64,000 nucleotides of DNA from Gemmatimonadota bacterium (GCA_031400975.1 JANNQX010000147.1:393-64392), one strand, 5' to 3'. Counted from the stretch's first letter, positions 39,552 through 63,344 are shown. Made by a program: numbers and translations. The notes: a model not told the origin generated them from the sequence alone.

Positions 39552-39561
39552 CGAGGAGATC

Positions 39562-42514: not shown

Positions 42515-42529
42515 GAACCGACTCCGCCG

Positions 42530-44275: not shown

Positions 44276-44337
44276 CGGAGGCTCCCGGTCGGTTCAAACG
44301 ATCGACGGCTGGTGGCGACAGTGGGCATGGCGACCTC

Positions 44338-48380: not shown

Positions 48381-48389
48381 GGGTTTCGC

Positions 48390-50387: not shown

Positions 50388-50400
50388 GGGTGTGGCTCTC

Positions 50401-50823
50401 TCACTCCCCTGGGATGCGGTAGAAGGGGAAAACCAAGGAGCGCTGATCGTAAGTTGCTTTGATCTCGTAATGGATCCGAATCATCAACCGCTCGTCGTGG
50501 TCGGGGTCAGCGTCTGCCTCGATGCTGAGCACCGTGATCCGGGGCTCCCACATCTTGAGGGCGTCCTCCACGTAGGACGCGGCCAGGCCCGCTGTCGTCG
50601 CATTGTTTTCCGCGAAGATCAGATCGTGGATCTGGCAGCCGAATTCCGGTCGCATGACCCGTTGGCCCTTAGGCGTGAGGAGGATCATCGCCATCGCTTC
50701 CTCGATGTCCCGCTCCCGGTGGGAGAGGGAAATCCGGCCTCGGACGTCAGTGGTGACCGGGAACGACCAGCCACTCCCGACGAAGTCCCTGCTGCGATGG
50801 TTGCTACCGAAACCTGTTGCCAC
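50401..50823 (-). CDS. GPW/gp25 baseplate protein
   Basis: GSGWSFP, ILLTPKGQRVMRPEFGC, WEPRI, LVFPFY. Confidence 0.93.
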   Translation of the reverse strand: MATGFGSNHRSRDFVGSGWSFPVTTDVRGRISLSHRERDIEEAMAMILLTPKGQRVMRPEFGCQIHDLIFAENNATTAGLAASYVEDALKMWEPRITVLSIEADADPDHDERLMIRIHYEIKATYDQRSLVFPFYRIPGE

Positions 50824-50834
50824 GGAGTTCCATT

Positions 50835-52505
50835 TCAGTTCAGGTTGACCATGGTGCCCTTGACCGTGACCGTGCCACCCCCGCCATCGAGTTTGGCACT
50901 CATTCCTTTCACCTCAACCGCTCCGGTCGCGGCGATATTGCACTTCCCGCCGGCCTTGACGTCGACGTTGCCTTTGGCGTCGATGGTGGCGTCGCCCTTG
51001 ACCGTGATCGTGAGCTTGTCCGACCCGGTGTCGAGCTTGATCGAGTTCCCATTCTTGTCGACGATCTCGATTCCGCCGCCGCCGTCGGTGTCGTCGAAGA
51101 GGAGTTTGTGGCCGACCCGGGTCTGGATCACTCGCTTTTGGACCTTACTGCCGGACACCGCGTCCTTGGCGTCCTTGGGTTGCTTGTCGACGCCGTTCCA
51201 GAGGCCGCCCAGGATGTATGGCTGGTGAATATCGCCCTGCTCGAAGCCGACGAGGACCTCGTCCTCGATTTCAGGCAGGAAACTGATCCCCCGGTCGGCT
51301 CCGGCCCCGATCGAGACAACCCGGGACCAAAAACTCGCCTGGTCCGACGCCAACCAAGGGAATTTGACCTTGACCCGGCCAAGGCTTTGGGGATCGTTGT
51401 TGTCAGTGACGATCGCGATCGCGAGACCGGTGTGGGTTGGCGGCGAGGTGGAGGCGAGGAGTGAGAGTAGGGTCGACGGGTTCTGGCCCGAAACACTGAA
51501 GTGGGTTTTGAAGCTCTTGTCTTCACCGTATTCGTGCCGGCAACTCGTCACCAGATAGGTTCCGCTGAACCGAGTACCGAGGGAAGAGATCTTGACGGGG
51601 GAACCGGCCAGGATCTGGGGGTTCCCGGCACAGACGGCCTCGGCCTCGATGAACCGGCTGGCGTGCTCCCCGGCAAGCGCTTTCGCCAAGGCATCGGCCG
51701 ATGCTTGGTCACGCACCGGAATATGGGCGCCTTGGTTGGTCGCGTTGCCTCCAAAGGCCTGCTCAGCCAGGCTCCCTCCGGGTTTGACTCCGACCTCCGG
51801 TCCGCCTTCGTTGGTCTTGGCCCGACCGACGACCTCCTGTTTTTTCTCTGGATCCCAGCCTCGGACGATGGTCCCGGTGACTTGGTCGACGGTCGTCAAA
51901 CAGGGATGGAATTCCGTGAGCGTGGCGGGCCACTGGAGATCAACCGACGGCCCGTCGGCTTTTGGCTCGGTGAAGTGGAGGGTCTTCCCGTCAACATAGA
52001 CCACGAATCCGAGAGCGGCGGCCCGCTTGCGGAGAAACTCGAGGTTGGTCTCGTTATTCTGGAACAAGTACTTGTGGACCGGCCCGGCTTTTCCATTGAA
52101 GCCCAGGCCGGCTTCACCGGCAAGCTTCTTGGCCACGTCCGCGTCGGTGACGTTGACGAACGAACGAACTTTGCGGCCGCGTGACAACCGGTGCAGCCGG
52201 TCGAACGCTCGGACGACCAACCGGACGGCGTCAAGGCCGAAGGCCGGCTCGAGTCCGACGATCTCGCCGTCGAACACCAAGTGGTCCTTGCCATCGGTAT
52301 TGGCTTTGATCTTGAGAGACTTGCCCGGTTCGAGGACTTGTTGGTCAATCCAATGAAGGCGGCTGTCGTGGAGCACCAAGGTTGCGGAGTCCGGCAAGTG
52401 AAGACTGCTCTCGACCGTCAGTGCGACGAGGTCGACAACCAGCTCGTCATGCAGTTGGCCGTCGATCTCGAGGTGAACATGGTTGAGGAGCGCCGGACTA
52501 CCCAT
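50835..52505 (-). CDS. VgrG-like spike (gp27-gp5)
   Basis: QNNETNLEFL, GWDP..K, GRVKVKFPW, FLPEIEDEVLVGFEQGD..PYILGGLWNG, beta-helix ending VNLN. Confidence 0.93.
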   Translation of the reverse strand: MGSPALLNHVHLEIDGQLHDELVVDLVALTVESSLHLPDSATLVLHDSRLHWIDQQVLEPGKSLKIKANTDGKDHLVFDGEIVGLEPAFGLDAVRLVVRAFDRLHRLSRGRKVRSFVNVTDADVAKKLAGEAGLGFNGKAGPVHKYLFQNNETNLEFLRKRAAALGFVVYVDGKTLHFTEPKADGPSVDLQWPATLTEFHPCLTTVDQVTGTIVRGWDPEKKQEVVGRAKTNEGGPEVGVKPGGSLAEQAFGGNATNQGAHIPVRDQASADALAKALAGEHASRFIEAEAVCAGNPQILAGSPVKISSLGTRFSGTYLVTSCRHEYGEDKSFKTHFSVSGQNPSTLLSLLASTSPPTHTGLAIAIVTDNNDPQSLGRVKVKFPWLASDQASFWSRVVSIGAGADRGISFLPEIEDEVLVGFEQGDIHQPYILGGLWNGVDKQPKDAKDAVSGSKVQKRVIQTRVGHKLLFDDTDGGGGIEIVDKNGNSIKLDTGSDKLTITVKGDATIDAKGNVDVKAGGKCNIAATGAVEVKGMSAKLDGGGGTVTVKGTMVNLN

Positions 52506-53163
52506 TCGGGATCACCAGCGTCATCCCGGGCGGCAGGTGACGGACGGTCTCCAGCTGATTCGCTTCCGCGATCAGCCGCCACATCGACGTGTCGCCATAC
52601 TCCTTGTAGGCGATCCATCCGAGGCTGTCGCCGGCGGTCACGGTCCAGACCCGGTCGCCGCCGATTCCCCCAGAGGTGGGGTTTTGTTTGGCGAGGGCCT
52701 CCTCGTCCTTGGCCTGCTGAAAACTGACCGTGACCATGGCCCGGACCGGGATTCCGTCCTCCAGAAAAAGCGTAAACTTCTGGCTCAGGCTGGTGATGAC
52801 TCCCTCGAACGACCACGTCTTACCCCAGACGAACTTGACCTTCGGTGGGCGTCCTTTCTTGCTCTTCTTGTCCTTGAGCTTGGGATCGACCAGCATCAGC
52901 TTCCACAGCTTGTCGGTGTACTTGGTCCGGACGTCTTCCGGTTTGACCCCGGGCTTCGCGTCGAGGTAGGTATCGAACAGCAATTCCATCGCCAAAGTTG
53001 CTGGTGATCCGCCGCCAAACGTCGTCTGGGGAGTATTGGCCCCGGCTTTCTGATCGCTAGTCCAATTGTTCTTCTTGTCGAACGTGTAAGTGTTCGGATT
53101 GAAGAGACACTCCAACCTCTGGGAGTTCTCCAGATTGATGATTTCTGCTTTGCTGAGCGCCAT
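52498..53163 (-). CDS. CIS tube initiator/LysM protein (Afp7-like)
   Basis: CLFNP, PPKVKFVWG, FLEDGIPVRA, QNPTSGG, LysM GDSL..IA..EYGD..WR.IA.AN. Confidence 0.9.
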   Translation of the reverse strand: MALSKAEIINLENSQRLECLFNPNTYTFDKKNNWTSDQKAGANTPQTTFGGGSPATLAMELLFDTYLDAKPGVKPEDVRTKYTDKLWKLMLVDPKLKDKKSKKGRPPKVKFVWGKTWSFEGVITSLSQKFTLFLEDGIPVRAMVTVSFQQAKDEEALAKQNPTSGGIGGDRVWTVTAGDSLGWIAYKEYGDTSMWRLIAEANQLETVRHLPPGMTLVIPNG

Positions 53164-53180
53164 GGCGGCCTCTCCCTCTC

Positions 53181-55772
53181 CTAATGGGCCCGGCGCCGCT
53201 CACCAGCGAGGCGACGCTTGAGGACCGTATAGACTTGTTTGGCGAGCGTATCGAGGTCGACCTTCGGCGCGCCGCCGATTGCTGCCGGCCCCGTGGGCGC
53301 CGAGGCATGCTGATCCGGCACCTGCCGGTCCGCCCCAGCCGCCTGAATCGGCGGCGGCGTGGTGGTGACCGACCAGGGTCCGGCCGGGGCCGAGGGACTG
53401 GTCGGACCCGCCGACCCCACCTCGGCTACCGGTCCGGACCGACTTGGCGGTAGATCCGGCAGCGGTTCCCAAGGTGCCGGGAGAGTTCCCCACCGCGGCG
53501 GCGCCTCTGGATCGGCCGGCGTTAGGCTCCGGATCGGCGCCTCGTGCGGGTCGAGAATTTCGGTCGCCGGCACCGGCGGCGGAGGGCTCGACCCCCGGGT
53601 GGCACCCGATGTGCGATCGCGGCTGGCCGCGATTGCCGCGGCCTCAACCACCAACGCCATCGCCTCTTCCTCGGCGGCGTGCGTCACACTCGGGGCGCCC
53701 TGGCCCGGACCCCGGGGCGTCGACTGCTGCCGCGCCGAAGGACGGAACGGCGGTCGGCCGGGCTGGACCGGGCGCGGCATGCCTCGAAGAATCGGGGGCA
53801 CGAACCGGGGGGTCCGTTGTCGGGCAACGTGGAGGAGTTCATGGCCCAGCAGGCCAACCGTCTTCGGGTCACTGTCCTGGTGGCCCGGGCCCAGGACGAT
53901 CTGTTCCCCGACCGCCAGCGCATCGGCCTGGAGCGCTCCAGTCGCTTCAGCAGCCTCGGCCCCTTGGTGAACCCGAACCGAACCGACATCGATTCCGATC
54001 AGCGGCTCAAGCAATTCGCGATTGGCAATCGACAGCGGCTGCCCTTGTGGCGGAGCTTTGGCCGGGGTTTGCGGGGCCTGGACTTCCAAAGGTCCGTGGG
54101 CGGCCTGAAGTCGGGCGAGCCACTCCATCGGGCCGGCCGATTCTTCGACCGGCGGCGGCTCGATCGGTGGCGGCTCGATCGGTAGCGACGCGGCCGCGGC
54201 GCCGGCGGGCTGAACCGCTTCGGCGGCTGGCTCCGGCGCGACCGATCGGGTCTCATCCCCGGCGCGGTGTTCGAGGGATCGCTCGGGGCGGCGACCAGGG
54301 GAGCGAGCCTGTCGGGTTTCGACCGGCGCCCAGTTGGGAGCCGGCGGCTTCGGATCGATCGCGGCCGACGGGGGGGCGAGGGCGGTTTCGACCGGCAGCG
54401 TCGGCTGGGCTCCGATCGCAGCCTCGGCGCCGACCGGCTCGCCGCTCGGCCCGGCCCTCACCGGCTCGGCCTCGATCGCCGCTTGGCCGATCAGTTCGCC
54501 GGCAACCGGTTCCCATGCCGGTCCGCTGACCGATTCGTCCGGGGTCGGCTGGAGCGAGTCGGAGATCACGGGGGGCTGCGACGTAGGGCCAGGTTCGGAA
54601 ACCAGCCGGGGGCTCTCGGCGTGACTCACCGGGTCTGAAGGCGGCGGGCCCGAGGTTGCGACGGCCGAAGGCGCTGCGGCTTCCGGGCCTGCCGCTGCCC
54701 GGGCAATCGCCGGTTCGGCACGAGGTGTCGGCTCGGGAACCAAAGCCGGGCTCACGGGGGGCGGGGTCGTCGTCGGCGTCTGGTCAGCGATCGGCGTGGC
54801 CACCGGTTGGTCCGAGGGAGCGGTCCCGACCAGCCCGGGGGTTGGGGCCGATGTCATCGAGGGTTCGGGGGCCGGGGCCGGGGGCAGGATTTCCGGGACT
54901 TGGGCGACTGGAATTGCCGTCTCGCGCCCAACCGGCTCGACCACCGGGTTCCAGGGTGCCTCGACCGTTACCGGTTCCGGTTCTGTGGTGGACGCGACCG
55001 ACGCCGGAGCTTCTCCCACGACCGGCGGTGTCGTCGAGTCGACGTTGGGCGGCTCGGCGGAGGTGGCGGCAAGGGCCGGCCGAGGGGCCGGGGGCATCGG
55101 TGCGGCCTCGGCCTTGAGCGGCTCGACCGTTCGAGGCGATGGGGTGGTCTGGGCAACTCGTGGCTCAAGTGAGGGCGCCGAACGCCCGGGTGATCGAGAT
55201 CCGACGGCAACGCCGGTCACGTCATTCACCTCACTCACCTCACTCACCTCACCCACCTCACCCACCTCACTCACCTCACCCACCTGACCGACGTCACTCA
55301 CCTCACCCACGTCACTCAGGTCACTCACGTCGGCCGGTTCGGGCGTCGGGGTCCCGGGTGCCGCTGCGACGGTCAGGTCGGGCGCCTCGCCGGCGGTGTC
55401 GGCGACGGGGCCTGGGGGGCCCACGGCATCGTCCAGTTCCCAACGTAGGGGCTCAAAGCCCAGGGCAGGGGCCGGATCGTCGGCGGGGCGGAGGCCTGCA
55501 GGGGCTGTCGGTTCTTCAGGCTTCGCGAGGGGCCAACTCGGACGGATGCTCGTTGAGTCGACCGGCTCGACGAACCGTCGCGCCGGAGCGGGCCTGTCAC
55601 GCTCGGGCCGGGGGGCCCAATTGAGCAAGGTGAGTCGGCGCCTGGCGATCCCGACCGTCTCTAGGATGAGCTGCCCAGTCGTCGGGCGCTGGAGGATGGC
55701 ATGGCGGCGCCGGAGCGTCGTCGCGAATCGCTCCATCCGGGCAAGGCGGACTCGATTGAGCCAAGTTAGCAT
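53181..55772 (-). CDS. Pro-rich DUF4157 (eCIS core) protein; tape-measure/lumen-cargo candidate
   Basis: VRVHQG..A..LQADALAVGEQIV...LLGHELLHVARQ; long low-complexity arms; C-terminal DLDTLAKQVY..LKRRL. Confidence 0.8.
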   Translation of the reverse strand: MLTWLNRVRLARMERFATTLRRRHAILQRPTTGQLILETVGIARRRLTLLNWAPRPERDRPAPARRFVEPVDSTSIRPSWPLAKPEEPTAPAGLRPADDPAPALGFEPLRWELDDAVGPPGPVADTAGEAPDLTVAAAPGTPTPEPADVSDLSDVGEVSDVGQVGEVSEVGEVGEVSEVSEVNDVTGVAVGSRSPGRSAPSLEPRVAQTTPSPRTVEPLKAEAAPMPPAPRPALAATSAEPPNVDSTTPPVVGEAPASVASTTEPEPVTVEAPWNPVVEPVGRETAIPVAQVPEILPPAPAPEPSMTSAPTPGLVGTAPSDQPVATPIADQTPTTTPPPVSPALVPEPTPRAEPAIARAAAGPEAAAPSAVATSGPPPSDPVSHAESPRLVSEPGPTSQPPVISDSLQPTPDESVSGPAWEPVAGELIGQAAIEAEPVRAGPSGEPVGAEAAIGAQPTLPVETALAPPSAAIDPKPPAPNWAPVETRQARSPGRRPERSLEHRAGDETRSVAPEPAAEAVQPAGAAAASLPIEPPPIEPPPVEESAGPMEWLARLQAAHGPLEVQAPQTPAKAPPQGQPLSIANRELLEPLIGIDVGSVRVHQGAEAAEATGALQADALAVGEQIVLGPGHQDSDPKTVGLLGHELLHVARQRTPRFVPPILRGMPRPVQPGRPPFRPSARQQSTPRGPGQGAPSVTHAAEEEAMALVVEAAAIAASRDRTSGATRGSSPPPPVPATEILDPHEAPIRSLTPADPEAPPRWGTLPAPWEPLPDLPPSRSGPVAEVGSAGPTSPSAPAGPWSVTTTPPPIQAAGADRQVPDQHASAPTGPAAIGGAPKVDLDTLAKQVYTVLKRRLAGERRRAH
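55212..55328 (-). repeat. 13 x 9-bp coding tandem repeat (V-[SG]-[ED])n
   Basis: + strand units CACCTCACT/CACCTCACC; protein VSD LSD VGE VSD VGQ VGE VSE VGE VGE VSE VSE VND VTG. Confidence 0.9.
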
Positions 55773-55778
55773 CGCCGC

Positions 55779-56216
55779 TCACAGCTTACGAGTAATGCCC
55801 GAGTGCGCCAACTCGAGCGTTTCGACGGCCAGCGCGGTGCCATCGGCGACGAGCTGCGGACCGATCCACTTGACGGGGAACGCACCCAGAAAATCCCAGT
55901 GGGCGATCAACCGGCCGGTCGGATTGAACACGAACAAGGAGAGGTTCTTCTTCTCGATGCCGAGCTGGCTGCCCGCCAAATCGGCATGCCATTTGAAGAA
56001 CTCATTGCCCTTGGTGATGCCTCGTTTGAGGGTCAGATTGCCGACCTTGGAGCGGCCGGGCAACTTATGGACGAAGCCGTTGTTGCCACCTTCCTCGTAG
56101 TCCTGCACGGTCGTCTCAACCTGAAGTCCGCTCGCTTCAGTAAAGACCGCTTGGGTTTCGTTGCCGATCTGGACATAGAACCGGCAGTTGACGAAGCCTT
56201 CGTCCTTGTCAGCCAT
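55779..56216 (-). CDS. CIS minor tube protein (gp19/Afp5-like)
   Basis: FTEASGL, YEEGGNN..HKLPG, LTLKRGI, AFPVKWIGP, ETLELAHSG. Confidence 0.92.
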   Translation of the reverse strand: MADKDEGFVNCRFYVQIGNETQAVFTEASGLQVETTVQDYEEGGNNGFVHKLPGRSKVGNLTLKRGITKGNEFFKWHADLAGSQLGIEKKNLSLFVFNPTGRLIAHWDFLGAFPVKWIGPQLVADGTALAVETLELAHSGITRKL

Positions 56217-56219
56217 GGG

Positions 56220-56369
56220 TCACCCCGGAGTCCGTTGAACCCCACGGGCGCGGTCCAGCTTGGCCTCGGCGTGCATCAGCTGGTAGACCCGCTCGGCCAG
56301 TTTGGCCACGTCGATCTTGGGAAGACCGGCGGCCGCCGGGGCCGGCTGCTGGGCGGATTGGGGCTCCAT
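56220..56369 (-). CDS. 49-aa CIS small protein (missing from the ORF track)
   Basis: Hand-translated MEPQSAQQPAPAAAGLPKIDVAKLAERVYQLMHAEAKLDRARGVQRTPG*; GGAG SD 7 nt upstream; fills the gap between chaperone and tube genes. Confidence 0.7.
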   Translation of the reverse strand: MEPQSAQQPAPAAAGLPKIDVAKLAERVYQLMHAEAKLDRARGVQRTPG

Positions 56370-56372
56370 CGG

Positions 56373-56738
56373 TCAGCTCCCCACCGTTTCGGTCAGATCG
56401 ACGGGGAACCGAGCGCCGCACTCCGGGCACTGGGTTTCGGCAAGGCCAGCTCCGCTGTCGTTGAGGCGAACGAACAAGTCCTGCAGATAGGAGAAATCCG
56501 CCGAGAACAGCCTCTCGACGACCTCCGGCCCCGGGCCTTCAACCGAACCGATCCGGACGAGGACCCGGCTGAGCAGTACCACGCTCAAGTAGGATTCATG
56601 GGCCCGGACTCGGGGATCCTTCATTGCTTCGAGCTCATCAAGCGCGGTGGAGAGCCGCATCACGCCGTCGCGCCGAAGGGTTCCGGTCTGATCGACCAGA
56701 CCGCACGGTAGCGTGAATTCGTACTCGGTTTGCAGCAT
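56373..56738 (-). CDS. Putative tail assembly chaperone of actinobacterial-type CIS
   Basis: QTEYEFTLP.G.VD..G...R.G.MRL.TA.DE, ERLFSADF.YLQD, CPECG. Confidence 0.82.
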   Translation of the reverse strand: MLQTEYEFTLPCGLVDQTGTLRRDGVMRLSTALDELEAMKDPRVRAHESYLSVVLLSRVLVRIGSVEGPGPEVVERLFSADFSYLQDLFVRLNDSGAGLAETQCPECGARFPVDLTETVGS

Positions 56739-56779
56739 GAGCGCCTCTCCCGCGTCTTAATCGGTTGATTCGAATTGCT

Positions 56780-57220
56780 CTACTTGACCCGCTTATATCC
56801 TTCGTGGGTGATGGTCAACTCTTCCAACGCCACCTCGTTGTTGGCGGCGTTGCCGGTCGGCCCTGACAGCTTGCACGGCCACGCATTGACGAAGTCCCAC
56901 CGGGCTATTTCAGTGCCCTTCTGGTCGAACATCACCAGGGACCCATTCTTGCGCGCTTCGTCGATCTTGCCTTGCTCGCATAGTCCGCGCCAGGTCCACA
57001 TCAGCATCGAATCCGAGACCCCCTGCTTGAGGACGATGTCGTTCCATTTCATTCGCCCCGGGAGCTTCTTCATGATGTACTCGCCCTTCGGACCGGTCGC
57101 CTTGTGCTCGACGACCTGGGTCTCACTCCCCATTCCGGTGCACTCTTTGAACGCTCCCTGAATTTTGCCCTGAAACTCAAGGCCGAACCATGCCGATACT
57201 AAAGGGTCCTTCTCAGCCAT
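56780..57220 (-). CDS. CIS major tube protein (gp19/Afp1-like)
   Basis: FKECTGMGSE, KLPGRMKW, RKNGS, ARWDFVNAWP, EELTITHEG. Confidence 0.93.
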   Translation of the reverse strand: MAEKDPLVSAWFGLEFQGKIQGAFKECTGMGSETQVVEHKATGPKGEYIMKKLPGRMKWNDIVLKQGVSDSMLMWTWRGLCEQGKIDEARKNGSLVMFDQKGTEIARWDFVNAWPCKLSGPTGNAANNEVALEELTITHEGYKRVK

Positions 57221-57261
57221 GATGATCTCCTAGCTAGTGAAAGTGTATTTAGGCTCGAAAC

Positions 57262-58824
57262 TCAGGCGCCGCCGTTGGTGAACTGGCTAAATCGGAAGAT
57301 CACGAATTCAGCTGGCTTGACGGGGGCAAGTCCGACTTCGATGATGAGTTGCCCGCGATCCCGGACGTCAGCCGGGTTGTTCTCCGCGTCACATTTCACG
57401 AAGAAGGCTTCCTCGGGGGTGGCGCCGAAGAGCGCCCCGTCCCGCCAGACACCAGTCAGGAACGCGCCCACATCGCGGCGGACCCGGGCCCAGAGATCAG
57501 CGTCGTTCGGTTCGAACACCACCCATTGGGTGCCCCCTTCGATCGATGACTCGACGTAGTTGAACAATCGACGGACACTGACGTAGCGCCACGCCGGGTC
57601 GCTCGATACCGTCCGAGCACCCCAGACCCGCACCCCGCGCCCGGTAAACGACCGGATGCAGTTGATGCCGCTCGGATTGAGCACGTCCTGCTCGCCCTTG
57701 GTGACTTGGGTGGACGGGCCAAGGGCGCCTCGGATGACTTCGTTCGCGGGCGCCTTGTGGACCCCTCGCTCCCGGTCGTTCCGGGCCCAGATTCCGGCAA
57801 CGTGGCCGCTCGGCGGGACATCGATCGGCTTCCCGTCGGGACCGTCGATCCTGATCCACGGATAGTACAGAGCGGCGAACTTGGAGTCGTAGTTGGTGTC
57901 CTTCTCACGCCACTTCTTGACCTCTTGGGGCGACAGCCCGGGGACCGGGTCGATAATGGCCATCCGGTTGGCGAGGCGCTCACAGTGGGCGATCATCGCC
58001 AACTGAACCGCCTTGACGCCGTCGCGGTCGATCGAGCCACTCTGGTAGGCCGACATGACGTCGGGACAGATCAACATGGTGACGTCGTCGGCGACCTCCA
58101 TGCCTTCGAGGCCCGATCGGTCGGATACGTCGCCGACGAAATGCGTCGATCGGAGGGCCGGCAATCCGGCGCTCTTGTCCGGGGCCTTGACGCTATACGA
58201 GCCGAGGGCCGGGGTCCGCTCGGCGAGCGAGCCCGCGCCGGGGATTTCGACCAAGGTGACGAGCCGGCTGGTTTGGTTCACGGTCTCGACCACGTTCTTG
58301 GCGCCGCGGCGGGCCAGACTGACGTTGTCGTAGTTCTCCTCGGTCTCGCCCATCTTGATTTTGATGGTGAAGGTGCCTTCGGCGGTCTCCTCGCCGGTCG
58401 GCCCAGTGACCTCGATCTGGATGTCACTCGATGGCGTGCCCTTCGGCGTGACCGAGAGCGACGGGATGCCCTTGGCGGAACGGCCCGGCAGCTGCACAAT
58501 CGGGCCCTTGGTCTCGCCCTCCTTCCCCTTGGTCGCGGGGACGACCCGGGCGACGTAGCACCGGCCCCCGCCATTGAGGAAATACCCGTAGACCGAGTGG
58601 GAGAGGTAGGCGCCCGGCATGTGTGGATTTCGGCGCCCGCCTTCCTCGAGGCTGCCGAACGTCTCGACGTACTGGCCCCAGTTCGTGATCAGGGTCGGGG
58701 CATTCGCGGGACCCGCAGGAGCGAATCCGACGAAGGCGGCCATAGCTGTTCCGACCCCCTCGATCGGGCGGGCGCCGGTGTTGACCTCCTCGATGTACAC
58801 CCCAGGCGACAGGTATTCAGGCAT
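57262..58824 (-). CDS. Contractile tail sheath protein
   Basis: MPEYLSPGVYIEE, ALYYPW, PPSGH.AG, GVHKAPANE, VWGART, WVVFEPN, APVKPAEFVIF. Confidence 0.97.
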   Translation of the reverse strand: MPEYLSPGVYIEEVNTGARPIEGVGTAMAAFVGFAPAGPANAPTLITNWGQYVETFGSLEEGGRRNPHMPGAYLSHSVYGYFLNGGGRCYVARVVPATKGKEGETKGPIVQLPGRSAKGIPSLSVTPKGTPSSDIQIEVTGPTGEETAEGTFTIKIKMGETEENYDNVSLARRGAKNVVETVNQTSRLVTLVEIPGAGSLAERTPALGSYSVKAPDKSAGLPALRSTHFVGDVSDRSGLEGMEVADDVTMLICPDVMSAYQSGSIDRDGVKAVQLAMIAHCERLANRMAIIDPVPGLSPQEVKKWREKDTNYDSKFAALYYPWIRIDGPDGKPIDVPPSGHVAGIWARNDRERGVHKAPANEVIRGALGPSTQVTKGEQDVLNPSGINCIRSFTGRGVRVWGARTVSSDPAWRYVSVRRLFNYVESSIEGGTQWVVFEPNDADLWARVRRDVGAFLTGVWRDGALFGATPEEAFFVKCDAENNPADVRDRGQLIIEVGLAPVKPAEFVIFRFSQFTNGGA

Positions 58825-59021
58825 AGCGATGCTCCTCGAAGGTTGAGAATGTCCATCCAGGACAACGGGGTACAGGTGCGACGGGGACCGGGAGGCTCCG
58901 ACCTTCGACAGATGTCGGGGGCCAGTTGGGTAAGGCGCTGGAGGTGTCGGCTAGGATCGCGTTGGCCATTCTTGTTCAAGGCGAGGGGCAACTGCCGAAA
59001 CCCAATTTTACGAATCATCTT

Positions 59022-59050
59022 GATATAGCGGTTTGTCCCGGATCTGCCAA
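59022..59050 (-). promoter_or_regulatory. Putative sigma70-type promoter of the CIS operon
   Basis: Minus strand TTGGCA (59050-45), 17-nt spacer, TATATC (59027-22) in a locally AT-rich patch, ~195 nt upstream of the sheath ATG. Confidence 0.45.
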
Positions 59051-59079
59051 GACCCCCAATCGAACTTCGGTCGCGGTCG

Positions 59080-59874
59080 CTACTGAATCACCGGGCGATT
59101 GACCGTTTCGACGACGAGGGATTGGAACGGAAGGGGCGCTAGCTCGGGGAAGAACTCATCGATCAGAGCTCGCATGCCGCGAAAGTGAGCAATCCAGGCC
59201 GGTTCCAAGGATCGATCCACCGTCACTTCGGGGCCTTCGCTGGTCTGGGATTGAAACTGGGCCCACTGGGCCGTCAGGTCGGCGAGTTGCTGTGGTCCGA
59301 GCGCGTCCTCGGCGGCGGCCACCCGCCCGAACACCGCCAACACGTAGTCGCAGAACATTTTAGGGGGCAACGGGCTGGACGGCCGCCACCGATCGATGGC
59401 CGCGTTCCACCGGGCGACCACTTCCACGTAGATATCCCGATGGCGTCGGAGGCGTTGAAGGGTGTCGCGCCAATGGGTGGCTCCCAGGTCGGCCTCATCC
59501 CAGGATTCAGGCGGACACAGCGTCGTCGCTCGCTGATAGACTCGGTCGCCGAACTTCGACATGGGGTACGAACGACAGGTGATTGGGCGATCCTCGTAGA
59601 TCCCGCACCGCGATTGGCCCGGCCCAACTTCCTCCAGAAAGATGCACGGCTGAGTCGGGGCCATTGGCTCCAACTTGAGGAGGGCGAGCCCGTGGGTCGG
59701 GCCGTCGGCCGCTAGCCGGAAGCCAAGCGGGTCTGGGGTTTCCTGCTCAGCGACAAAGGCGAACGACTCTGGCGCAATGCCCCTCTTGGTGGTGATCCGC
59801 CAGAGGTCGTGGCCGAAGATCGGAACCAGATAGGAACGGCAGCAAAGGCCGCAGGCGGCGCAGGGATCCTTCAC
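59080..59874 (-). CDS. YkgJ/FliB-like CxxCxxCC cysteine-cluster protein
   Basis: CAACGLCC, CIFL, CGIYEDRPITCRSYP. Confidence 0.85.
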   Translation of the reverse strand: MKDPCAACGLCCRSYLVPIFGHDLWRITTKRGIAPESFAFVAEQETPDPLGFRLAADGPTHGLALLKLEPMAPTQPCIFLEEVGPGQSRCGIYEDRPITCRSYPMSKFGDRVYQRATTLCPPESWDEADLGATHWRDTLQRLRRHRDIYVEVVARWNAAIDRWRPSSPLPPKMFCDYVLAVFGRVAAAEDALGPQQLADLTAQWAQFQSQTSEGPEVTVDRSLEPAWIAHFRGMRALIDEFFPELAPLPFQSLVVETVNRPVIQ

Positions 59875-59917
59875 CGGTCGAAGCTACGTTCGGTCCGACG
59901 CCGGCGCCACCGAAGGC

Positions 59918-61018
59918 TCAGGACCGGGCCGCTACGACCAGGTGGAGGCGGTACGTCACGGCACTCCGATCGTGAAGCCGGACCGTCCATGACACCTGAT
60001 CGCGCTCCGCGACGACCTGAAGCCCCGGGACCGAGGCCGGGTGGCCCCCCGGGGTGAGGAGGGCCCGGAGTACCTGATCGCTGGCCCCGCCGCCGAATGA
60101 TCGTGGCGAATGGCCGCCGATCCAGGCTTCCACCGCGGTGGCCGCTGGGGCCCAGTCGTACGGCGAGGCAAGGATCACCAAAGCCCCCGGCCGAAGGACC
60201 CGGGCCGTCTCCCGGAGCAGGTCGAGTGGGGCGGCAACACAATCGAGCAAGTTGAGGCAGACCGCGCCGCCGAAACTGCCGGCGCCGAACGGCAGCCGGG
60301 CCGCGTCGCAGGCCCAAAAGTCCACTCGGTCGCCGTCGGAAACCGGGACTGGAAACTCCCGCCAGTCGTACCGGATACCCCCGCGTCGGAGCGGGTAACG
60401 GGCGACTCCGCGCCGGAGGACCCGGGCGGCCACCTTGAGAAAATGAAAGCCGAGGTCGACGCCGACAACCAAGTCAGCCGTCTGCCCGGTCAGGTCGAAG
60501 GTCGAGCGGCCCCCGGCACAGCCGAGATCGAGGAGTGGTCCCTCGCCAAGCGTCCCACCGGCTTGGCGGCAGAGTTCTAATCCGGTGGAGAGCGTGCGAG
60601 CCACGGATCCCGGATGAATGCCTTCCGGCTGGCCTTTGGCGGGGTCGTCGTGATCCCATTCACCGTAGTGGTCCCAACCGTAGCTGCCGAGGTGGGTCCA
60701 GGTTACGTCCAAGTAGGATCCCGGGCCGCTTCCCTCGGCCAGCAGCCCCTCAATCACAGGCGAGAGGTCGTCCCGGTCACGAAGGTGATACAGCTGCGAT
60801 GCGAGGTACCCGGCGACGTCCGGCACCAGAAGCGGGATCCCGTCGACGATCGGATACTCACGAAGGCAGTTGGGACCCGGACATTGGAGGACACCTTCAA
60901 AGACAGCATTCGCGTCGGCAACGGCCTCGATCGACACCCGAAGGGGATGCTCCTCCCCTCGCTCGACCCGGCAGACCGGGCAAATCGGGCGGAGGGTCTC
61001 GAAGTGTCGTCTCTTCAA
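59918..61018 (-). CDS. Trm112-like Zn module + class I SAM methyltransferase
   Basis: CPVC...C...CLREYPIVDGIPLL; LLDLGCAGG, CDA..LPF, RVLRPG. Confidence 0.85.
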   Translation of the reverse strand: MKRRHFETLRPICPVCRVERGEEHPLRVSIEAVADANAVFEGVLQCPGPNCLREYPIVDGIPLLVPDVAGYLASQLYHLRDRDDLSPVIEGLLAEGSGPGSYLDVTWTHLGSYGWDHYGEWDHDDPAKGQPEGIHPGSVARTLSTGLELCRQAGGTLGEGPLLDLGCAGGRSTFDLTGQTADLVVGVDLGFHFLKVAARVLRRGVARYPLRRGGIRYDWREFPVPVSDGDRVDFWACDAARLPFGAGSFGGAVCLNLLDCVAAPLDLLRETARVLRPGALVILASPYDWAPAATAVEAWIGGHSPRSFGGGASDQVLRALLTPGGHPASVPGLQVVAERDQVSWTVRLHDRSAVTYRLHLVVAARS

Positions 61019-61021
61019 ACG

Positions 61022-61408
61022 CTAGCCGCCGATCATGACCGTGGGGCTGCCGGGCGGAATGATCTTGCCGACCGGAGACGGGATTGGAGCGACGCAGGTC
61101 GCGTGCTGGGTCATGTCGCCGACCCGGGCGGCGGGCAGGTTGTTGACCATTACCGTAGCGGATCCCTTCATAATGATGCCGGGCCCGGCCGGTACACACG
61201 ACGGCAGCATGCAAATTTTCGACATGTCGGTGACCCGGGCGGCCGCCATGTTGTTGTACTTCACCGTCGGTGAGCCCGGTGGCATGATGGCGAGGGGCAG
61301 TGCCGGATGCGGCACCGGGGTTGGGACCGGCGCCGGTGGGTGGATCGGCGCGTGACAATGGGGGGCGTCTTGAAGGATGTTATCGCCGACTCTGGCGCCT
61401 GGTGGCAT
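61022..61408 (-). CDS. PAAR-domain spike-tip protein
   Basis: Three PAAR-type motifs (PGARVGD, AAARVTD, PAARVGD), GS.TV repeats, terminal VMIGG; ATG at 61408. Confidence 0.92.
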   Translation of the reverse strand: MPPGARVGDNILQDAPHCHAPIHPPAPVPTPVPHPALPLAIMPPGSPTVKYNNMAAARVTDMSKICMLPSCVPAGPGIIMKGSATVMVNNLPAARVGDMTQHATCVAPIPSPVGKIIPPGSPTVMIGG

Positions 61409-61446
61409 CTCAAGATCTCCGGGATCGGTTTTCGAATCAGTCGGGA

Positions 61447-62784
61447 CTACCCGACCGCCGCACAATGTTCGATCTGCTCAACGGCGGCGCGGTGGCCCGC
61501 CTCCGACAGCGTGCTCGATCGGCGCAGGGCCGAGGTCGTCCTCGCCTTGGTCCATGCCTCGTATCCGGCGTCAATTTCGGCGGGCGTCAGGGTCGGCAGT
61601 GTCAGGACCGAGGTCCGATGATTTGCGGGCCGGTCGAGGTGGTCCGCCGCCAGGTAGCCGTGCTCGATACAATAGCGATGGAGGTGGGTACCGGGATAGG
61701 GGTAGAACACGAAGAACCCGAAATCGTCCGGCTCGATTCGATGGTGGAGCGCCAAGGTCTCGGCCATCTCGGCCGGCGTCTCGGTCGGGAGCCCCATCAT
61801 ATAGTTGGCGGTGACAAGGATCCCGGCCTCTTTGGTCCACTGAAAGACGTCGACGAATCGTTGGTTGGACACCGGACGCCGCATTACTTCACGCCGGAGT
61901 CGCTCGCTACCGCTCTCGACCCCGTAGGTGATGTGCCGGCACCCGGCCGCGGCCAGGCGCCGAAGCAGCTTGGCGTTGACCGTCTCGACCCGGGCATGGA
62001 GCGAAAAGGGAATCCGGAGCTGCTCACCATACCCGTCGCAGAACTGGTGGACCCAGGGGTGGTTGATGGTGAACGTATCATCGAGAAAGATGACGTAATT
62101 GAGGGGACCCTGGGCTTTGATTTCGGTGAGCTCCTGGATCACGTTCGCCAAGGACCGGCGACGGCCGTAGTCGCCAGTCTCGGCGTACAGTTCGTTGTAC
62201 ATCCGAGCGGCGCAGTAGGTGCACTTGAACGGGCAGCCGCGTTGGGTGCTGACGTGAACGACACCGTACCGCTCATCGAGCAGGTCACGGGCCATGAACG
62301 GGAGGTCGTCGAGCGGCTCAAAGGGGGCCCGGAGCGACGGCCGCGGCCCACCTTTGCCCCAGATGTTGGGAATTCGCGCATCCGAAGGCTTCCCGCCGCT
62401 CTCGAGAAACCGAGCCAGGTCGAGAAGCGCCGTTTCGCCCTCGCCGAGACAGACATAGTCGAACCCGGGGGCGGCAAGGACGTCCTCGGGGGAAAAAGTC
62501 GGGTGAAGTCCGCCGGTGACGACCGGGATATCATGATGGTGACGAATCTGCTCGATCAGTCCCCGCGCTCGTAGCCACTGCCGAGTCGTGAGCGAAAGGC
62601 CGATCAGTTGGGGTCGGATGACACCGACCTGCTCGACCAGCTGGTCACCCGCCCAGTCGAGCGGGACTCGAAGAAACTTGACTGAATGACCGGCGGTGCG
62701 GAGGTACGAGGCCAAGAAGGCCGGGCCCAACGAGGCCACGGCCCAAGTGCTCTCGGTATCAATCTCGAGAAACAGGACATCCAT
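61447..62784 (-). CDS. Cobalamin-binding radical SAM enzyme (class B methyltransferase-like)
   Basis: LASYL..AGH, TGGLHPT, GEGE (B12 domain); RGCPFKCTYC; DDTF; GVESGS; MMGLPTET; PYPGT. Confidence 0.9.
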   Translation of the reverse strand: MDVLFLEIDTESTWAVASLGPAFLASYLRTAGHSVKFLRVPLDWAGDQLVEQVGVIRPQLIGLSLTTRQWLRARGLIEQIRHHHDIPVVTGGLHPTFSPEDVLAAPGFDYVCLGEGETALLDLARFLESGGKPSDARIPNIWGKGGPRPSLRAPFEPLDDLPFMARDLLDERYGVVHVSTQRGCPFKCTYCAARMYNELYAETGDYGRRRSLANVIQELTEIKAQGPLNYVIFLDDTFTINHPWVHQFCDGYGEQLRIPFSLHARVETVNAKLLRRLAAAGCRHITYGVESGSERLRREVMRRPVSNQRFVDVFQWTKEAGILVTANYMMGLPTETPAEMAETLALHHRIEPDDFGFFVFYPYPGTHLHRYCIEHGYLAADHLDRPANHRTSVLTLPTLTPAEIDAGYEAWTKARTTSALRRSSTLSEAGHRAAVEQIEHCAAVG

Positions 62785-62899
62785 GATGGGCAAGGTACCC
62801 CGTTTACCGGACCCGGGGGAGGGGACTCCCGGATCGCGAGGCTTCGGTCCAAACTTCGGGGTGGCAGTGGGTTCACCGGGTCGGCGAGGAGGGAGTGCC

Positions 62900-63298
62900 A
62901 TGACGAACCAGATGGTGCCCGAAGGCGGGCCAGGTGTTCAAGTCCTCGCCTTGAGGTCGGGAGCGACCGTCAGCGTTCATCCCGATCCTCGAGGTGAAAC
63001 GATCGTGCTCCGGTCGGCGGCTGGGCTGGTCGACCTCAGCATCAGGATGACCGATCAAGGGCCGGTACTGAGCCTTCGGGGAGTCCGGCTCGAAATCGAA
63101 GCCACGGAAGAACTAGCGGTCCGGTGCCGGGAATTCACCGTCGAGGCCCGGGACGGCATCCGGCTAGCCAGTGGCGGCGAGGTCCATGTCCGAAGCCAGG
63201 GGCAGACTTTCGTCGACGGCGACTTCGTCAATCTCAACTGTCTCGATCGAGCGGGGTACCACGACGCCGAGCCGTCCCCCGGGGATCGGCCCGAATGA
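62900..63298 (+). CDS. Stand-alone spike beta-helix-like protein (VgrG/gp5 C-terminus-like)
   Basis: GGAGGGAG SD; ~8-residue beta-repeats (LEIEATEELAVRC..FTVEA..GIRLAS.GEVHVRS); VDGDFVNLN matches the VgrG terminus VKGTMVNLN. Confidence 0.6.
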   Translation: MTNQMVPEGGPGVQVLALRSGATVSVHPDPRGETIVLRSAAGLVDLSIRMTDQGPVLSLRGVRLEIEATEELAVRCREFTVEARDGIRLASGGEVHVRSQGQTFVDGDFVNLNCLDRAGYHDAEPSPGDRPE

Positions 63299-63344
63299 GG
63301 ACCCCGACCTGGTCTTTGAGTCTGCGGTCGTCAACGGAACCCGG

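What the first reader, a model, noticed from the sequence alone, without database searches (positions are those of the whole stretch)
59080..62784. PAAR spike tip embedded in a methylation/Fe-S tailoring cassette (B12-radical SAM, PAAR, Trm112-MTase, YkgJ/FliB-like)
Seen: the only PAAR gene lies outside the structural operon, ~2.2 kb upstream of the sheath. It sits between a cobalamin radical SAM gene (38-bp gap) and a methyltransferase gene (3-bp gap), followed by a CxxCxxCC protein. The PAAR has no toxin extension but has a His/Cys/Pro-rich loop (PHCHAPIHPPAPVPTPVPHP) and several Cys/Met residues. Established: class B radical SAM enzymes methylate unactivated carbons, including on peptides and proteins; FliB is a Cys-cluster flagellin lysine methylase; Trm112 partners methyltransferases. 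Inference: three potential methylating enzymes may post-translationally modify the spike or other CIS subunits (RiPP-like tailoring of an injection tip), or make a small-molecule payload. I know of no description of this.
Basis: partly seen in the sequence, partly recalled or inferred. Interest (0 to 1): 0.85.

Follow-up and report, generated by a model that had tools for sequence, protein, structure and literature searches.

The report
Spike-tip protein with its own methyltransferase
The needle-tip (PAAR) gene here belongs to a widespread subfamily that is always accompanied, usually immediately downstream, by one particular methyltransferase gene, mostly inside type VI secretion clusters, so the tip may be chemically modified before use; the other two neighbouring enzymes are only sometimes, or never, part of this unit.

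Summary

**Core pair.** The conserved unit is a 128-aa PAAR with an invariant N-terminal His/Cys motif, followed a few bases later by a Trm112-zinc-ribbon/class I SAM methyltransferase.
- Of 80 genomes carrying this PAAR subfamily, 78 have the methyltransferase within 10 kb, 77 of them directly downstream.
- The other two encode it about 11 kb away or on a broken contig.
- In 201 Rhizobiales-order genomes, the full-length methyltransferase and the PAAR occur in the same 2 genomes, adjacent.
- The enzyme's closest solved relatives are the ovothiol/ovoselenol imidazole N-methyltransferases.

**Context.** Fifty of the 80 loci sit among canonical T6SS genes, and none showed a phage-type sheath. 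This genome also has a complete T6SS on another contig, and the window's gene is its only PAAR.

**The other two enzymes.**
- The B12-radical SAM gene, with a small beta-rich protein, joins the pair only in a minority of loci (6 of 80, plus one metagenome relative).
- The CxxCxxCC gene never does (0 of 80).

**Best reading (inferred).** The methyltransferase, and the radical SAM enzyme where present, modify the tip protein in the producer cell. A rival is that the methyltransferase is a PAAR-borne cargo effector.

I found no description of this pairing in print.

The parts
62900..63298 (+). Small beta-rich protein (about 132 aa), transcribed divergently from the rSAM gene. It is weakly DUF3540/DUF2345-like (VgrG C-terminal type). 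I read it as an optional member of the rSAM-type module.
   Evidence: The first ~68 codons of the 200-aa ORF 62696-63298 are the antisense shadow of the rSAM N-terminus. Homologues lie beside the PAAR or the rSAM in L022, L036, L089, L090, L099 and L102, beside the rSAM fragment in L103, and 6.5 kb from the PAAR in L038. Pfam hits are weak: DUF2345 in 5 of 9 members (best E 0.032) and DUF3540 in 2 of 9 (best 9.5e-4). Atlas: DUF3540 cluster at score 0.91.
61447..62784 (-). Cobalamin-binding (class B) radical SAM enzyme of an unnamed subfamily. It is an optional member of the module.
   Evidence: Pfam B12-binding 73.7 bits and Radical_SAM 89.4 bits. All named NCBIfam rSAM families score far below their cut-offs; the best is HpnJ at 109.6 against 577.6. 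Orthologues of 46-80% identity lie near PAAR-MTase, within 5 kb, in L022, L060, L089, L090, L099 and L102. None of the 78 more distant metagenome rSAMs (39% identity or less) has a PAAR.
61022..61408 (-). PAAR spike-tip protein, 128 aa, no toxin domain. It belongs to a distinct subfamily with an N-terminal extension carrying an invariant His/Cys motif.
   Evidence: PF05488 E 1.7e-14. It is the only PAAR in the assembly. There are 2690 homologues at E<=1e-5, and 119 of the 120 best listed are 71-89% identical (one 164-aa hit is 54%), across phyla. The N-terminal ~30 residues are not covered by any solved PAAR.
59918..61018 (-). Trm112-like four-Cys zinc ribbon fused to a class I SAM-dependent methyltransferase. 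It is the obligate partner of this PAAR subfamily.
   Evidence: Pfam Methyltransf_11/25/31. TIGR04345 ovoA_Cterm E 7e-24 and Trm112_arch E 1.2e-6, both below cut-off. The family profile against the PDB gives OvoA 1e-29, OvsM 1.6e-29, OvoM 2.5e-26 and the next hit 9e-15. SAM-binding motifs are conserved in 39 sequences.
59080..59874 (-). CxxCxxCC (YkgJ-type) protein. It is a neighbour, not part of the conserved PAAR module.
   Evidence: PF03692 E 2.2e-9; no NCBIfam family, so no FliB match. It is found in 0 of 80 PAAR loci. It occurs in 2 of 300 other genomes of the phylum, both next to DUF4157-domain genes.
47400..58824 (-). Adjacent phage-tail-like (eCIS-type) structural operon, given as context. 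Gene order: sheath, tube, 121-aa protein, tube, DUF4157/eCIS_core protein, CIS_tube+LysM, VgrG-like spike, gp25, Baseplate_J, FHA+Tail_P2_I. It has no PAAR of its own.
   Evidence: Pfam. There is no room for a PAAR gene between VgrG (50835-52505), gp25 (50401-50823) and Baseplate_J (48390-50387).

Best explanation
**Shown: two juxtaposed units.** Unit 1 is a conserved spike-tip module. Its core is a PAAR of a distinct subfamily and, a few bases downstream, a dedicated methyltransferase made of a Trm112-like zinc ribbon fused to a class I SAM methyltransferase. In a minority of mostly non-proteobacterial lineages, including this one, the pair also carries a B12-radical SAM enzyme and a small DUF3540/DUF2345-like beta protein. 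Unit 2 is the CxxCxxCC gene plus the eCIS operon.

**Inferred mechanism.**
1. In the producer's cytoplasm the methyltransferase binds the newly made PAAR.
2. It methylates a side chain in the invariant N-terminal H-C-H-x3-H...H cluster. An imidazole nitrogen is the likeliest target, because the enzyme's nearest characterised relatives (OvoA C-domain, OvoM, OvsM) methylate the imidazole N of thio- or selenohistidine.
3. Where present, the B12-rSAM adds a second, radical modification (probably C-methylation) to the PAAR or to the small beta protein.
4. The matured tip is then mounted on a VgrG trimer.

**Which machine it caps here is open.** My estimate is about 50% the T6SS on contig C237, about 30% the adjacent eCIS, and about 20% both.
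For: **The pairing.**
- The MTase lies within 10 kb in 78 of 80 loci, and directly downstream on the same strand in 77.
- The two exceptions encode it 11 kb downstream on the same contig, or as a fragment at a contig edge.
- In 60 of 77 loci the MTase ORF's first start codon lies within -30 to +60 nt of the PAAR stop, with a median gap of 5 nt among those 60.
- Five of 5 genomes tested have a single MTase copy. I checked one of them by coordinates, and it lies right after the PAAR.
- In 201 Rhizobiales-order genomes, the full-length MTase and the PAAR subfamily occur in the same 2 genomes, adjacent.

**The enzyme looks active.** The DxGCxxG motif and the acidic residues D188, D238 and D259 are conserved in 39 sequences.

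**Specific kinship to imidazole N-methyltransferases.** Profile E-values are 1e-29 to 2.5e-26 against 9e-15 for the next family. Extended shared motifs lie outside the SAM pocket.

**The PAAR has a family-specific extension.** Its N-terminal extension carries invariant His and Cys and is absent from solved PAARs.

**The rSAM argues for chemistry in the producer cell.** Six orthologues of 46-80% identity lie near PAAR-MTase, within 5 kb, in five phyla or lineages, and no distant rSAM does. An Fe-S/cobalamin enzyme can only plausibly act in the producer cytoplasm (established knowledge of the family).

**Spike context.**
- T6SS core genes lie in 50 of 80 loci.
- Annotated examples exist in Aureimonas and Thiodictyon plasmids.
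- An eCIS-like baseplate and ATPase lie upstream of the module in G041, a genome with no T6SS sheath or TssF found.
Against: - No experiment or model shows PAAR methylation.
- The characterised relatives of the MTase act on free amino acids, not proteins. The MTase scores below the ovoA_Cterm cut-off (84.6 against 170 bits).
- Genes directly downstream of PAAR are classically cargo effectors. A review reports that a T6SS-cluster methyltransferase-domain protein, Tsb1 of Bradyrhizobium sp. LmicA16, was proposed as an effector. Its homology to this family is untested.
- The rSAM is missing from 74 of 80 loci, so radical chemistry is not essential to the pair.
- The 80 loci were picked by the PAAR's own motif and are the best 80 of 399, and many are kin (for example 9 Shinella, counting one uncultured MAG). 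The counts therefore overstate independence.
Confidence: 0.45

Rival explanations
1. The methyltransferase is a cargo effector. It docks on this PAAR's special N-terminal extension, is fired into target cells, and methylates a target-cell molecule. The PAAR is its dedicated carrier.
For: - It sits immediately downstream of the PAAR with a median 5-nt gap among the 60 of 77 loci with a nearby start. That is the usual place for PAAR-dependent cargo (established T6SS knowledge, recalled).
- A review says Tsb1, a methyltransferase-domain protein in a Bradyrhizobium T6SS cluster, was suggested to be an effector, and that its mutant had an intermediate symbiotic phenotype (passage read).
- The Trm112-type zinc ribbon is typical of methyltransferases that act on the translation machinery (recalled), which would be a plausible target.
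Against: - The pairing is fixed across at least 7 phyla and is single-copy. Effectors usually vary between strains.
- No conserved immunity-like gene follows it. The next conserved genes are structural or regulatory T6SS genes.
- The associated B12-rSAM cannot be a delivered enzyme.
- Homology between Tsb1 and this family was not tested, because the primary paper is not held.
Confidence: 0.3
2. One reading: a four-gene, eCIS-specific tailoring cassette in which rSAM, MTase and a FliB-like CxxCxxCC enzyme all methylate the eCIS spike or make a small-molecule payload.
For: - All four genes are co-oriented and closely spaced, directly upstream of the sheath gene.
- The eCIS operon has no PAAR of its own.
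- A second genome (G041) has PAAR-MTase...rSAM...DUF4157 downstream of eCIS-like baseplate genes and no T6SS sheath or TssF found.
Against: - CxxCxxCC is found in 0 of 80 PAAR loci, and a phage-type sheath in 0 of 80.
- The closest metagenome relative, L102 (rSAM 73%, PAAR 87%, MTase 67% identity), has the small protein, rSAM, PAAR and MTase. It has no CxxCxxCC and no sheath homologue anywhere in the 13.3-kb locus, and the next large ORFs after the MTase are on the opposite strand.
- The nearest eCIS sheath relative in the genus (G021, 54% identity) lies in a genome with no PAAR at all.
- The CxxCxxCC protein matches no NCBIfam family, FliB included.
Confidence: 0.1
3. The methyltransferase acts on another component or has a non-catalytic role. 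It might methylate VgrG or a regulator, or serve as a chaperone that keeps the Cys/His-rich PAAR soluble and metal-loaded until assembly.
For: - Strict co-occurrence shows a shared function but does not name the substrate.
- A zinc-ribbon domain could be a protein-docking platform.
- In Rhizobiales-type clusters the pair sits among regulators: a STAS protein, an anti-sigma-like ATPase and an FHA protein.
Against: - The SAM-binding residues are conserved, so catalysis is probably retained.
- In several genomes the pair is far from every other T6SS gene yet stays together.
Confidence: 0.15

Closest known systems
T6SS PAAR-repeat proteins (solved: 4JIV, 4JIW)
   Same: The PAAR_motif domain is shared (PF05488). 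The subfamily profile matches 4jiw at E 9e-9 and 4jiv at E 9e-8 over positions 33-101. Most relatives lie in T6SS clusters next to VgrG.
   Different: - It is 128 aa against 93 aa.
- It has an extra N-terminal ~30 residues with invariant H-C-H-x3-H that no solved PAAR covers.
- Cys stands where the solved proteins have His in the aligned PHDKPKH segment.
- It has an obligate methyltransferase partner.
- It scores below the NCBIfam T6SS_PAAR_dom cut-off (53.5 against 124 bits).
eCIS tip proteins (Afp10/Pvc10/Cis10 class; solved: SalCis10, 9RCE chain c)
   Same: This is the best PDB hit of the subfamily profile (E 1.6e-9). In the window the gene lies next to an eCIS-type operon.
   Different: - The gene is not inside the structural operon between gp25 and Baseplate_J.
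- None of the 80 relatives showed a phage-type sheath within 10 kb.
- A genus relative's eCIS (G015) has its own 93-aa PAAR about 4 kb from its sheath.
Ovothiol/ovoselenol imidazole N-methyltransferases (OvoA C-terminal domain 8KHQ, OvsM 9BXH, OvoM 9BXL)
   Same: These are the closest solved relatives of the methyltransferase by a wide margin. Shared motifs extend beyond the SAM site.
   Different: - Those enzymes act on free 5-thio- or 5-selenohistidine.
- This family adds a Trm112-like zinc ribbon and a conserved linker.
- It is encoded with a PAAR, with no conserved sulfoxide-synthase gene among the recurrent neighbours (one SUMF1/EgtB/PvdO-family gene lies about 9 kb from the pair in the Thiodictyon plasmid).
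- It scores below the TIGR04345 cut-off.
B12-radical SAM methylases of proteins and peptides (MCR glutamine C-methyltransferase TIGR04014; RiPP C-methyltransferases TIGR03975; ApyD)
   Same: The domain architecture is the same (B12-binding plus radical SAM), with partial matches at E 8e-23 to 8e-30. The gene is encoded next to a small protein that could be a substrate.
   Different: Every named family scores far below its cut-off. No leader-peptide-type precursor was recognised, and the context is a secretion-system spike.
Tsb1 of Bradyrhizobium sp. LmicA16
   Same: A review describes it as a protein of unknown function with a methyltransferase domain, whose mutant phenotype lies between wild type and a T6SS vgrG mutant (passage read in review PMC10879055). 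That it is encoded inside the T6SS cluster is my recollection of the primary paper's abstract.
   Different: Its sequence and its position relative to a PAAR were not available. The primary paper is not held, so identity with this family is untested.
FliB / YkgJ CxxCxxCC proteins
   Same: The 264-aa neighbour carries the PF03692 domain.
   Different: It matches no NCBIfam family, FliB included. It does not travel with the PAAR (0 of 80).

Membership tests
PAAR_motif (PF05488) | Score above the Pfam gathering threshold | tested here: met
   54.2 bits against a 27-bit cut-off, E 1.7e-14.
NCBIfam T6SS_PAAR_dom (NF033420) | Score above the curated cut-off | tested here: not met
   53.5 bits against 124. 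It is a relative, not a member of that equivalog.
Class B (cobalamin-binding) radical SAM | N-terminal B12-binding domain, radical SAM core and a CxxxCxxC cluster motif | tested here: met
   PF02310 73.7 bits and PF04055 89.4 bits. The motif CPFKCTYC was listed among the conserved patterns.
Named B12-rSAM families (HpnJ, ApyD, BchE, PhpK, MCR Gln C-methyltransferase) | Score above each curated cut-off | tested here: not met
   The best is HpnJ at 109.6 bits against 577.6. All 25 listed families are far below their cut-offs.
OvoA C-terminal / OvoM / OvsM imidazole N-methyltransferases | Score above the TIGR04345 cut-off | tested here: not met
   84.6 bits against 170. It is nevertheless the closest solved clade by about 15 orders of magnitude.
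OvoA C-terminal / OvoM / OvsM imidazole N-methyltransferases | Methylation of an imidazole nitrogen of a histidine derivative | not testable with these tools
   This needs an enzyme assay or MS.
Trm112 | Four-Cys zinc ribbon with a Trm112 profile match | tested here: inconclusive
   NF038101 scores 28.6 bits against 77. PDB 6zxw_H matches positions 1-65 at E 1.1e-6. C13, C16, C46 and C51 are invariant or nearly so. PF03966 is precomputed on only 6 of the 120 listed homologues.
CxxCxxCC / YkgJ (PF03692) | Score above the gathering threshold | tested here: met
   38.3 bits against 23.
FliB flagellin lysine methylase | Match to an NCBIfam FliB model | tested here: not met
   The 264-aa protein has no NCBIfam family at E<=0.01.
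eCIS / phage-tail-like particle operon (neighbour) | Sheath, tube, VgrG-like spike, gp25 and Baseplate_J in one operon | tested here: met
   PF04984/PF17482, PF06841 twice, PF19266, PF04717/PF05954, PF04965 and PF04865. No eCIS-type AAA ATPase or cap was found among the window ORFs I scanned.
Type VI secretion system (same genome, contig C237) | TssB, TssC, TssF, TssG, TssK, TssM, ClpV and VgrG clustered | tested here: met
   VipB E 6e-122. tblastn found all eight on C237. Hcp, TssJ and TssL queries found nothing there at E 1e-6; TssA and TssE were not searched. The contig's composition fits the bin.
RiPP-like tailoring system | A recognisable precursor with leader and core next to the maturase | tested here: inconclusive
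   The only small neighbours are the PAAR and a 132-aa beta-rich protein. Neither resembles a known precursor family.

The most novel reading that the evidence does not exclude
The tip of contractile injection machines is enzymatically matured in this PAAR subfamily. A dedicated OvoM-like methyltransferase installs an N-methylhistidine at the invariant H-C-H-x3-H motif. It might even be an ovothiol-like methylated thio-histidine formed from the adjacent His and Cys. This would change the metal site or the chemistry of the very point that first touches the target membrane. In some lineages a B12-radical SAM enzyme adds a C-methyl or a cross-link. The same matured tip module is shared between T6SS and eCIS. 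This would be the first post-translationally tailored spike tip.
Probability: 0.3. Interest if true: 0.85.

Novelty: new variant of a known kind. Interest (0 to 1): 0.66.

Why it matters
PAAR proteins are treated as passive, zinc-stabilised cones that sharpen the spike and carry toxins. This work points to something different.

- **A dedicated enzyme partner.** One strictly conserved, very widespread PAAR subfamily has about 2,700 homologues at E<=1e-5 (generic PAAR proteins may be among the weaker hits). Its closest members are more than 70% identical across Proteobacteria, Acidobacteriota, Planctomycetota, Gemmatimonadota, Nitrospinota and Desulfobacterota. A PAAR that never travels without one particular methyltransferase implies an unrecognised maturation or loading step in T6SS and CIS biology.
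- **Directly testable.** Culturable, non-pathogenic hosts carry the pair, for example Shinella, Xanthobacter, Azospirillum doebereinerae and Aureimonas. Co-expression and mass spectrometry would settle whether the tip is modified.
- **Annotation.** Both genes currently carry only generic names: 'PAAR domain-containing protein' and 'methyltransferase domain-containing protein'.
- **Machine sharing.** The pair may show how spike-tip modules move between T6SS and phage-tail-like particles.

Tried and rejected
- **Complex prediction.** Complex prediction of MTase plus PAAR, both as alignments, returned 'no answer' with score 0.00. It is not used as evidence either way.
- **Structure models.** The AlphaFold2 model of the PAAR was poor: mean pLDDT 55.4, with the His/Cys loop (residues 15-36) below 50. 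The model of the small beta protein reached pLDDT 66.9. Both were too weak for fold searches, so none were run.
- **Promoter and terminator scan.** The scan of 58600-63400 found 0 promoter-like sites and 3 terminator-like sites against 3.0 expected. It is uninformative about co-transcription with the sheath gene.
- **Contamination check.** I considered that the T6SS contig C237 might be a binning contaminant. Its GC (0.660 against 0.650 +/- 0.011) and tetranucleotide distance (62nd percentile) fit the bin, so I rejected this on composition alone.
- **Closed or unavailable sources.**
  - The record behind L102 is not held for whole-record searches.
  - The primary Tsb1 paper is not held.
  - Supplementary files were not consulted.
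- **Literature.** The following searches found nothing describing a PAAR-methyltransferase or PAAR-rSAM unit:
  - 'PAAR + methyltransferase + type VI secretion' (65 papers, 25 listed)
  - 'T6SS + methyltransferase + rhizobia + PAAR' (7 papers)
  - 'PAAR + Trm112' (1 irrelevant paper)
  - 'PAAR + radical SAM + contractile injection' (2 irrelevant papers)
  - 'PAAR + SAM-dependent methyltransferase + T6SS' (6 papers)

  The Re87 methyltransferase fragment of R. etli (passages read) is a truncated copy of a chromosomal gene that the authors say is not in a T6SS context. The S. fredii paper (passages read) does not mention one. A search for OvsM/OvoM papers returned only ovomucin papers.

Full report
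**1. Observation**

| Gene | Coordinates | Evidence |
|---|---|---|
| B12-binding radical SAM | ORF 61447-62901 | B12-binding and Radical_SAM domains |
| PAAR, 128 aa | 61022-61408 | PF05488 |
| Methyltransferase | 59918-61018 | Class I methyltransferase core; N-terminus matches archaeal Trm112 |
| CxxCxxCC protein | 59080-59874 | PF03692 |

- Homologues of the rSAM align only from its residue 40.
- The gaps are 38, 3 and 43 nt between the four genes, and 255 nt to the sheath gene.
- Downstream follows an eCIS-type operon: sheath, two gp19-type tubes, a DUF4157/eCIS_core protein, CIS_tube+LysM, a VgrG-like spike, gp25, Baseplate_J and an FHA+Tail_P2_I protein. It has no PAAR of its own.
- The window's PAAR is the only PF05488 match in the 4.76-Mb assembly.
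- The closest named record is a Gemmatimonadota MAG.

**2. The PAAR is a member of a large, sharply conserved subfamily**

- A search of the 5.8-billion-protein set gave 2690 hits at E<=1e-5. Of the 120 best listed, 119 are 71-89% identical (one 164-aa hit is 54%) and most are 126-130 aa long. The few that carry source names come from Mesorhizobium and Planctomycetaceae.
- Against solved structures, the profile matches an eCIS tip protein (SalCis10, E 1.6e-9) and the classical T6SS PAARs (4jiw, 4jiv) only from about position 27-33 onward.
- The N-terminal H-C-H-x3-H stretch is therefore a family-specific extension.
- I infer from that alignment that C66 and C71 stand where the solved proteins have His.

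**3. What travels with it**

A scan of one genome per species (185,579 species) with the family's own motifs found 399 relatives, and the best 80 loci were fetched with +/-10 kb flanks. I searched them by tblastn with the window's proteins at E<=1e-5.

| Window protein | Loci with a hit (of 80) | Note |
|---|---|---|
| Methyltransferase | 78 | 77 directly downstream on the same strand, one at +9.7 kb |
| rSAM | 6 | L022 80%, L089 60%, L060 58%, L099 55%, L090 46%, L088 30% identity |
| CxxCxxCC | 0 | |
| Sheath, tubes, gp25, Baseplate_J | 0 | |
| Small protein | 6 | |

- The two loci without a methyltransferase were followed up. One genome encodes it about 11 kb downstream on the same contig. 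In the other, the contig ends about 100 bp after the PAAR, and a methyltransferase C-terminal fragment lies at the edge of another contig.
- In 60 of 77 loci the methyltransferase ORF's first start codon lies within -30 to +60 nt of the PAAR stop. The median gap among those 60 is 5 nt.
- Reverse test 1: five of 5 genomes have a single family member. For the one I checked by coordinates (G330), it lies right after the PAAR.
- Reverse test 2: in 201 genomes sampled from the order of a Shinella carrier, full-length matches occur in 2 genomes, and the PAAR subfamily occurs in the same 2, adjacent.
- Six weaker hits in that sample cover only the catalytic core. Five of them lie inside ORFs of 700-740 aa, which by their length I take to be OvoA-like proteins (inference).

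**4. The usual context is the T6SS**

- I clustered all ORFs of the 80 loci without prior labels and ran Pfam on cluster representatives.
- The recurrent neighbours are VgrG, ClpV, Hcp, TssB, TssC, TssF, TssG, TssJ, TssK, TssL, TssM and DUF6931.
- Fifty of 80 loci hold at least one T6SS core gene and 37 hold three or more.
- Two annotated plasmids show the same thing in NCBI's own words.
  - In Aureimonas sp. AU20, 'PAAR domain-containing protein' and 'methyltransferase domain-containing protein' sit between regulators and FHA-tssJ-tssK-dotU-tssM.
  - In Ca. Thiodictyon syntrophicum they diverge from vgrG.
- On a tree of 71 methyltransferases, 39 of 43 rows in the proteobacterial clade are T6SS-linked. 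The Acidobacteriota, Planctomycetota, Gemmatimonadota, Nitrospinota and Desulfobacterota rows lie outside that proteobacterial clade (midpoint root, for drawing only) and are more often unlinked.

**5. This genome has a T6SS too**

- Contig C237 (33 kb) carries VgrG, ClpV, TssG, TssF, TssC, TssB, two TssK and TssM. It has no PAAR.
- Its composition fits the bin.
- Among 41 relatives, only this genome has a T6SS sheath. Apart from this genome, only G001 (1 of 40 relatives) has the PAAR orthologue.
- Genomes that carry unlinked rSAM-type modules (L089, L090, L099, L088) have a T6SS sheath elsewhere and no phage-type sheath.
- The adjacency to an eCIS is not unique, however. In G041, where no VipB or TssF was found, the module lies on the same strand a few kb downstream of an eCIS-like AAA+WHD ATPase, a VgrG-OB protein, gp25-like and Baseplate_J-like genes. 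A DUF4157 protein follows it.
- Within the genus, the eCIS sheath relatives are mixed.
  - G021 (54% identity) has no PAAR at all.
  - G015 has its own 93-aa PAAR about 4 kb from its sheath.
- Which spike the window's PAAR caps therefore stays open.

**6. The radical SAM gene and a missed small gene**

- A metagenome scan with the rSAM gave two close relatives.
  - L102 (73% identity) has the same layout: small gene divergent, then rSAM-PAAR-MTase. It has no CxxCxxCC or sheath homologue anywhere in the 13.3-kb locus, and the next large ORFs after the methyltransferase are on the other strand.
  - L103 is too short to judge.
- The other 78 rSAMs (28-39% identity) have no PAAR.
- L088's rSAM (30% identity) is also a B12-rSAM, directly after the methyltransferase.
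- The 200-aa ORF opposite the rSAM start is partly an antisense shadow. The real gene is about 132 aa (62900-63298, +). It recurs beside the PAAR or the rSAM in L022, L036, L089, L090, L099, L102 and L103.
- It gives weak DUF2345 and DUF3540 matches and a DUF3540 cluster in the atlas.
- On the methyltransferase tree, the rSAM-bearing rows need 4 changes, though a single origin is not excluded.

**7. The CxxCxxCC gene**

- Only 2 of 300 other genomes of the phylum have a homologue.
- In both, a DUF4157-domain gene lies within a few kb on the same strand. No PAAR, methyltransferase or rSAM is there.
- It belongs with the DUF4157/eCIS side, if anywhere. Two cases are too few to say more.

**8. 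The enzyme**

- The methyltransferase family keeps four zinc-ribbon cysteines, the DxGCxxG SAM motif, and acidic residues D188, D238 and D259. I therefore expect it to be active.
- Its profile hits OvoA's methyltransferase domain (E 1e-29), OvsM (1.6e-29) and OvoM (2.5e-26). The next family scores 9e-15.
- Motifs are shared well outside the SAM pocket.
- It scores below the TIGR04345 cut-off, so it is a relative of that family and not a member.

**9. Interpretation**

Shown:
- There is a fixed PAAR-methyltransferase pair.
- It has an optional rSAM and small-protein extension.
- It sits mostly in T6SS contexts.

Inferred:
- The methyltransferase modifies the PAAR, most likely an imidazole in the invariant His/Cys motif, in the producer cell.
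- The rSAM adds radical chemistry where present. An Fe-S/cobalamin enzyme makes sense only inside the producer, and that is my main reason to prefer maturation over the cargo-effector rival.
- The rival stays serious. The position downstream of a PAAR is classic for cargo. A review reports that a T6SS-associated methyltransferase-domain protein, Tsb1, was proposed as an effector. I could not test whether Tsb1 is a member.

**10. Novelty**

- Five literature searches and passages of three papers gave no description of the pairing.
- Database names are generic.
- I rate it a new variant of a known kind: a spike-tip module with a dedicated modifying enzyme.

**Limits**
- The 80 loci were chosen through the PAAR's own motif and include close kin.
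- No structure or complex model was usable.

Noticed in passing
window 35206-48380: The far end of the eCIS operon is embedded in Ser/Thr-kinase and FHA signalling genes. The last baseplate protein is an FHA+Tail_P2_I fusion (47400-48380). It is followed by a kinase with Ig-like domains, about 1,000 aa after resolving the overlap (ORF 44338-48078). Then come a Sel1/zinc-ribbon protein, FHA proteins (41324-42514 and 39562-40512), two more kinases (35206-37389 and 40377-41327) and a VWA protein. This recalls the PpkA/Fha threonine-phosphorylation switch of T6SS (recalled), here possibly wired to a phage-tail-like particle.
   Followed up: partly
G000 contig C237 (loci L188, L189): A complete-looking T6SS cluster lies in the same assembly. 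It is the only one among 41 relatives searched. Downstream of its VgrG lie a CsgG-like protein, an unknown 391-aa protein and a protein of more than 1,771 aa with Ig-like domains that runs off the contig.
   Followed up: partly
L186 (G179:C52) 105-5460; L187 (G155:C122) 3075-4345: The only two homologues of the CxxCxxCC protein in 300 genomes of the phylum lie next to DUF4157/eCIS_core-domain genes. One of them is a tandem pair.
   Followed up: partly
window 53181-55772 (-): The 863-aa DUF4157/eCIS_core protein is mostly Pro/Ala-rich low-complexity sequence with short Ser-Glu-Val-Gly-type repeats. It sits between the second tube gene and the LysM tube gene, where a length-determining protein might be expected.
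   Followed up: no
L190 (Aureimonas sp. AU20 pAU20a) 10046-13961; loci L032, L040, L041, L043 and others at -1.0 kb: In Rhizobiales-type T6SS clusters, the PAAR-methyltransferase pair is preceded by a STAS protein and an anti-sigma-like HATPase_c_2 protein and followed by an FHA protein. This suggests partner-switching control of the same operon.
   Followed up: no
G519:C4:1587038-1587688 and five further places: Weaker methyltransferase-profile hits (E 1e-24 to 1e-29) cover only the catalytic core. Five of the six lie inside ORFs of 700-740 aa in Rhizobiales-order genomes. By their length and the PDB kinship I take them to be OvoA-type fusion proteins (inference).
   Followed up: no
window 56373-56738 (-): A 121-aa protein between the two tube genes ends in a CPxC zinc-ribbon-like motif. 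It has no Pfam family, and only a sub-threshold MJ0042 zinc-finger hit.
   Followed up: no
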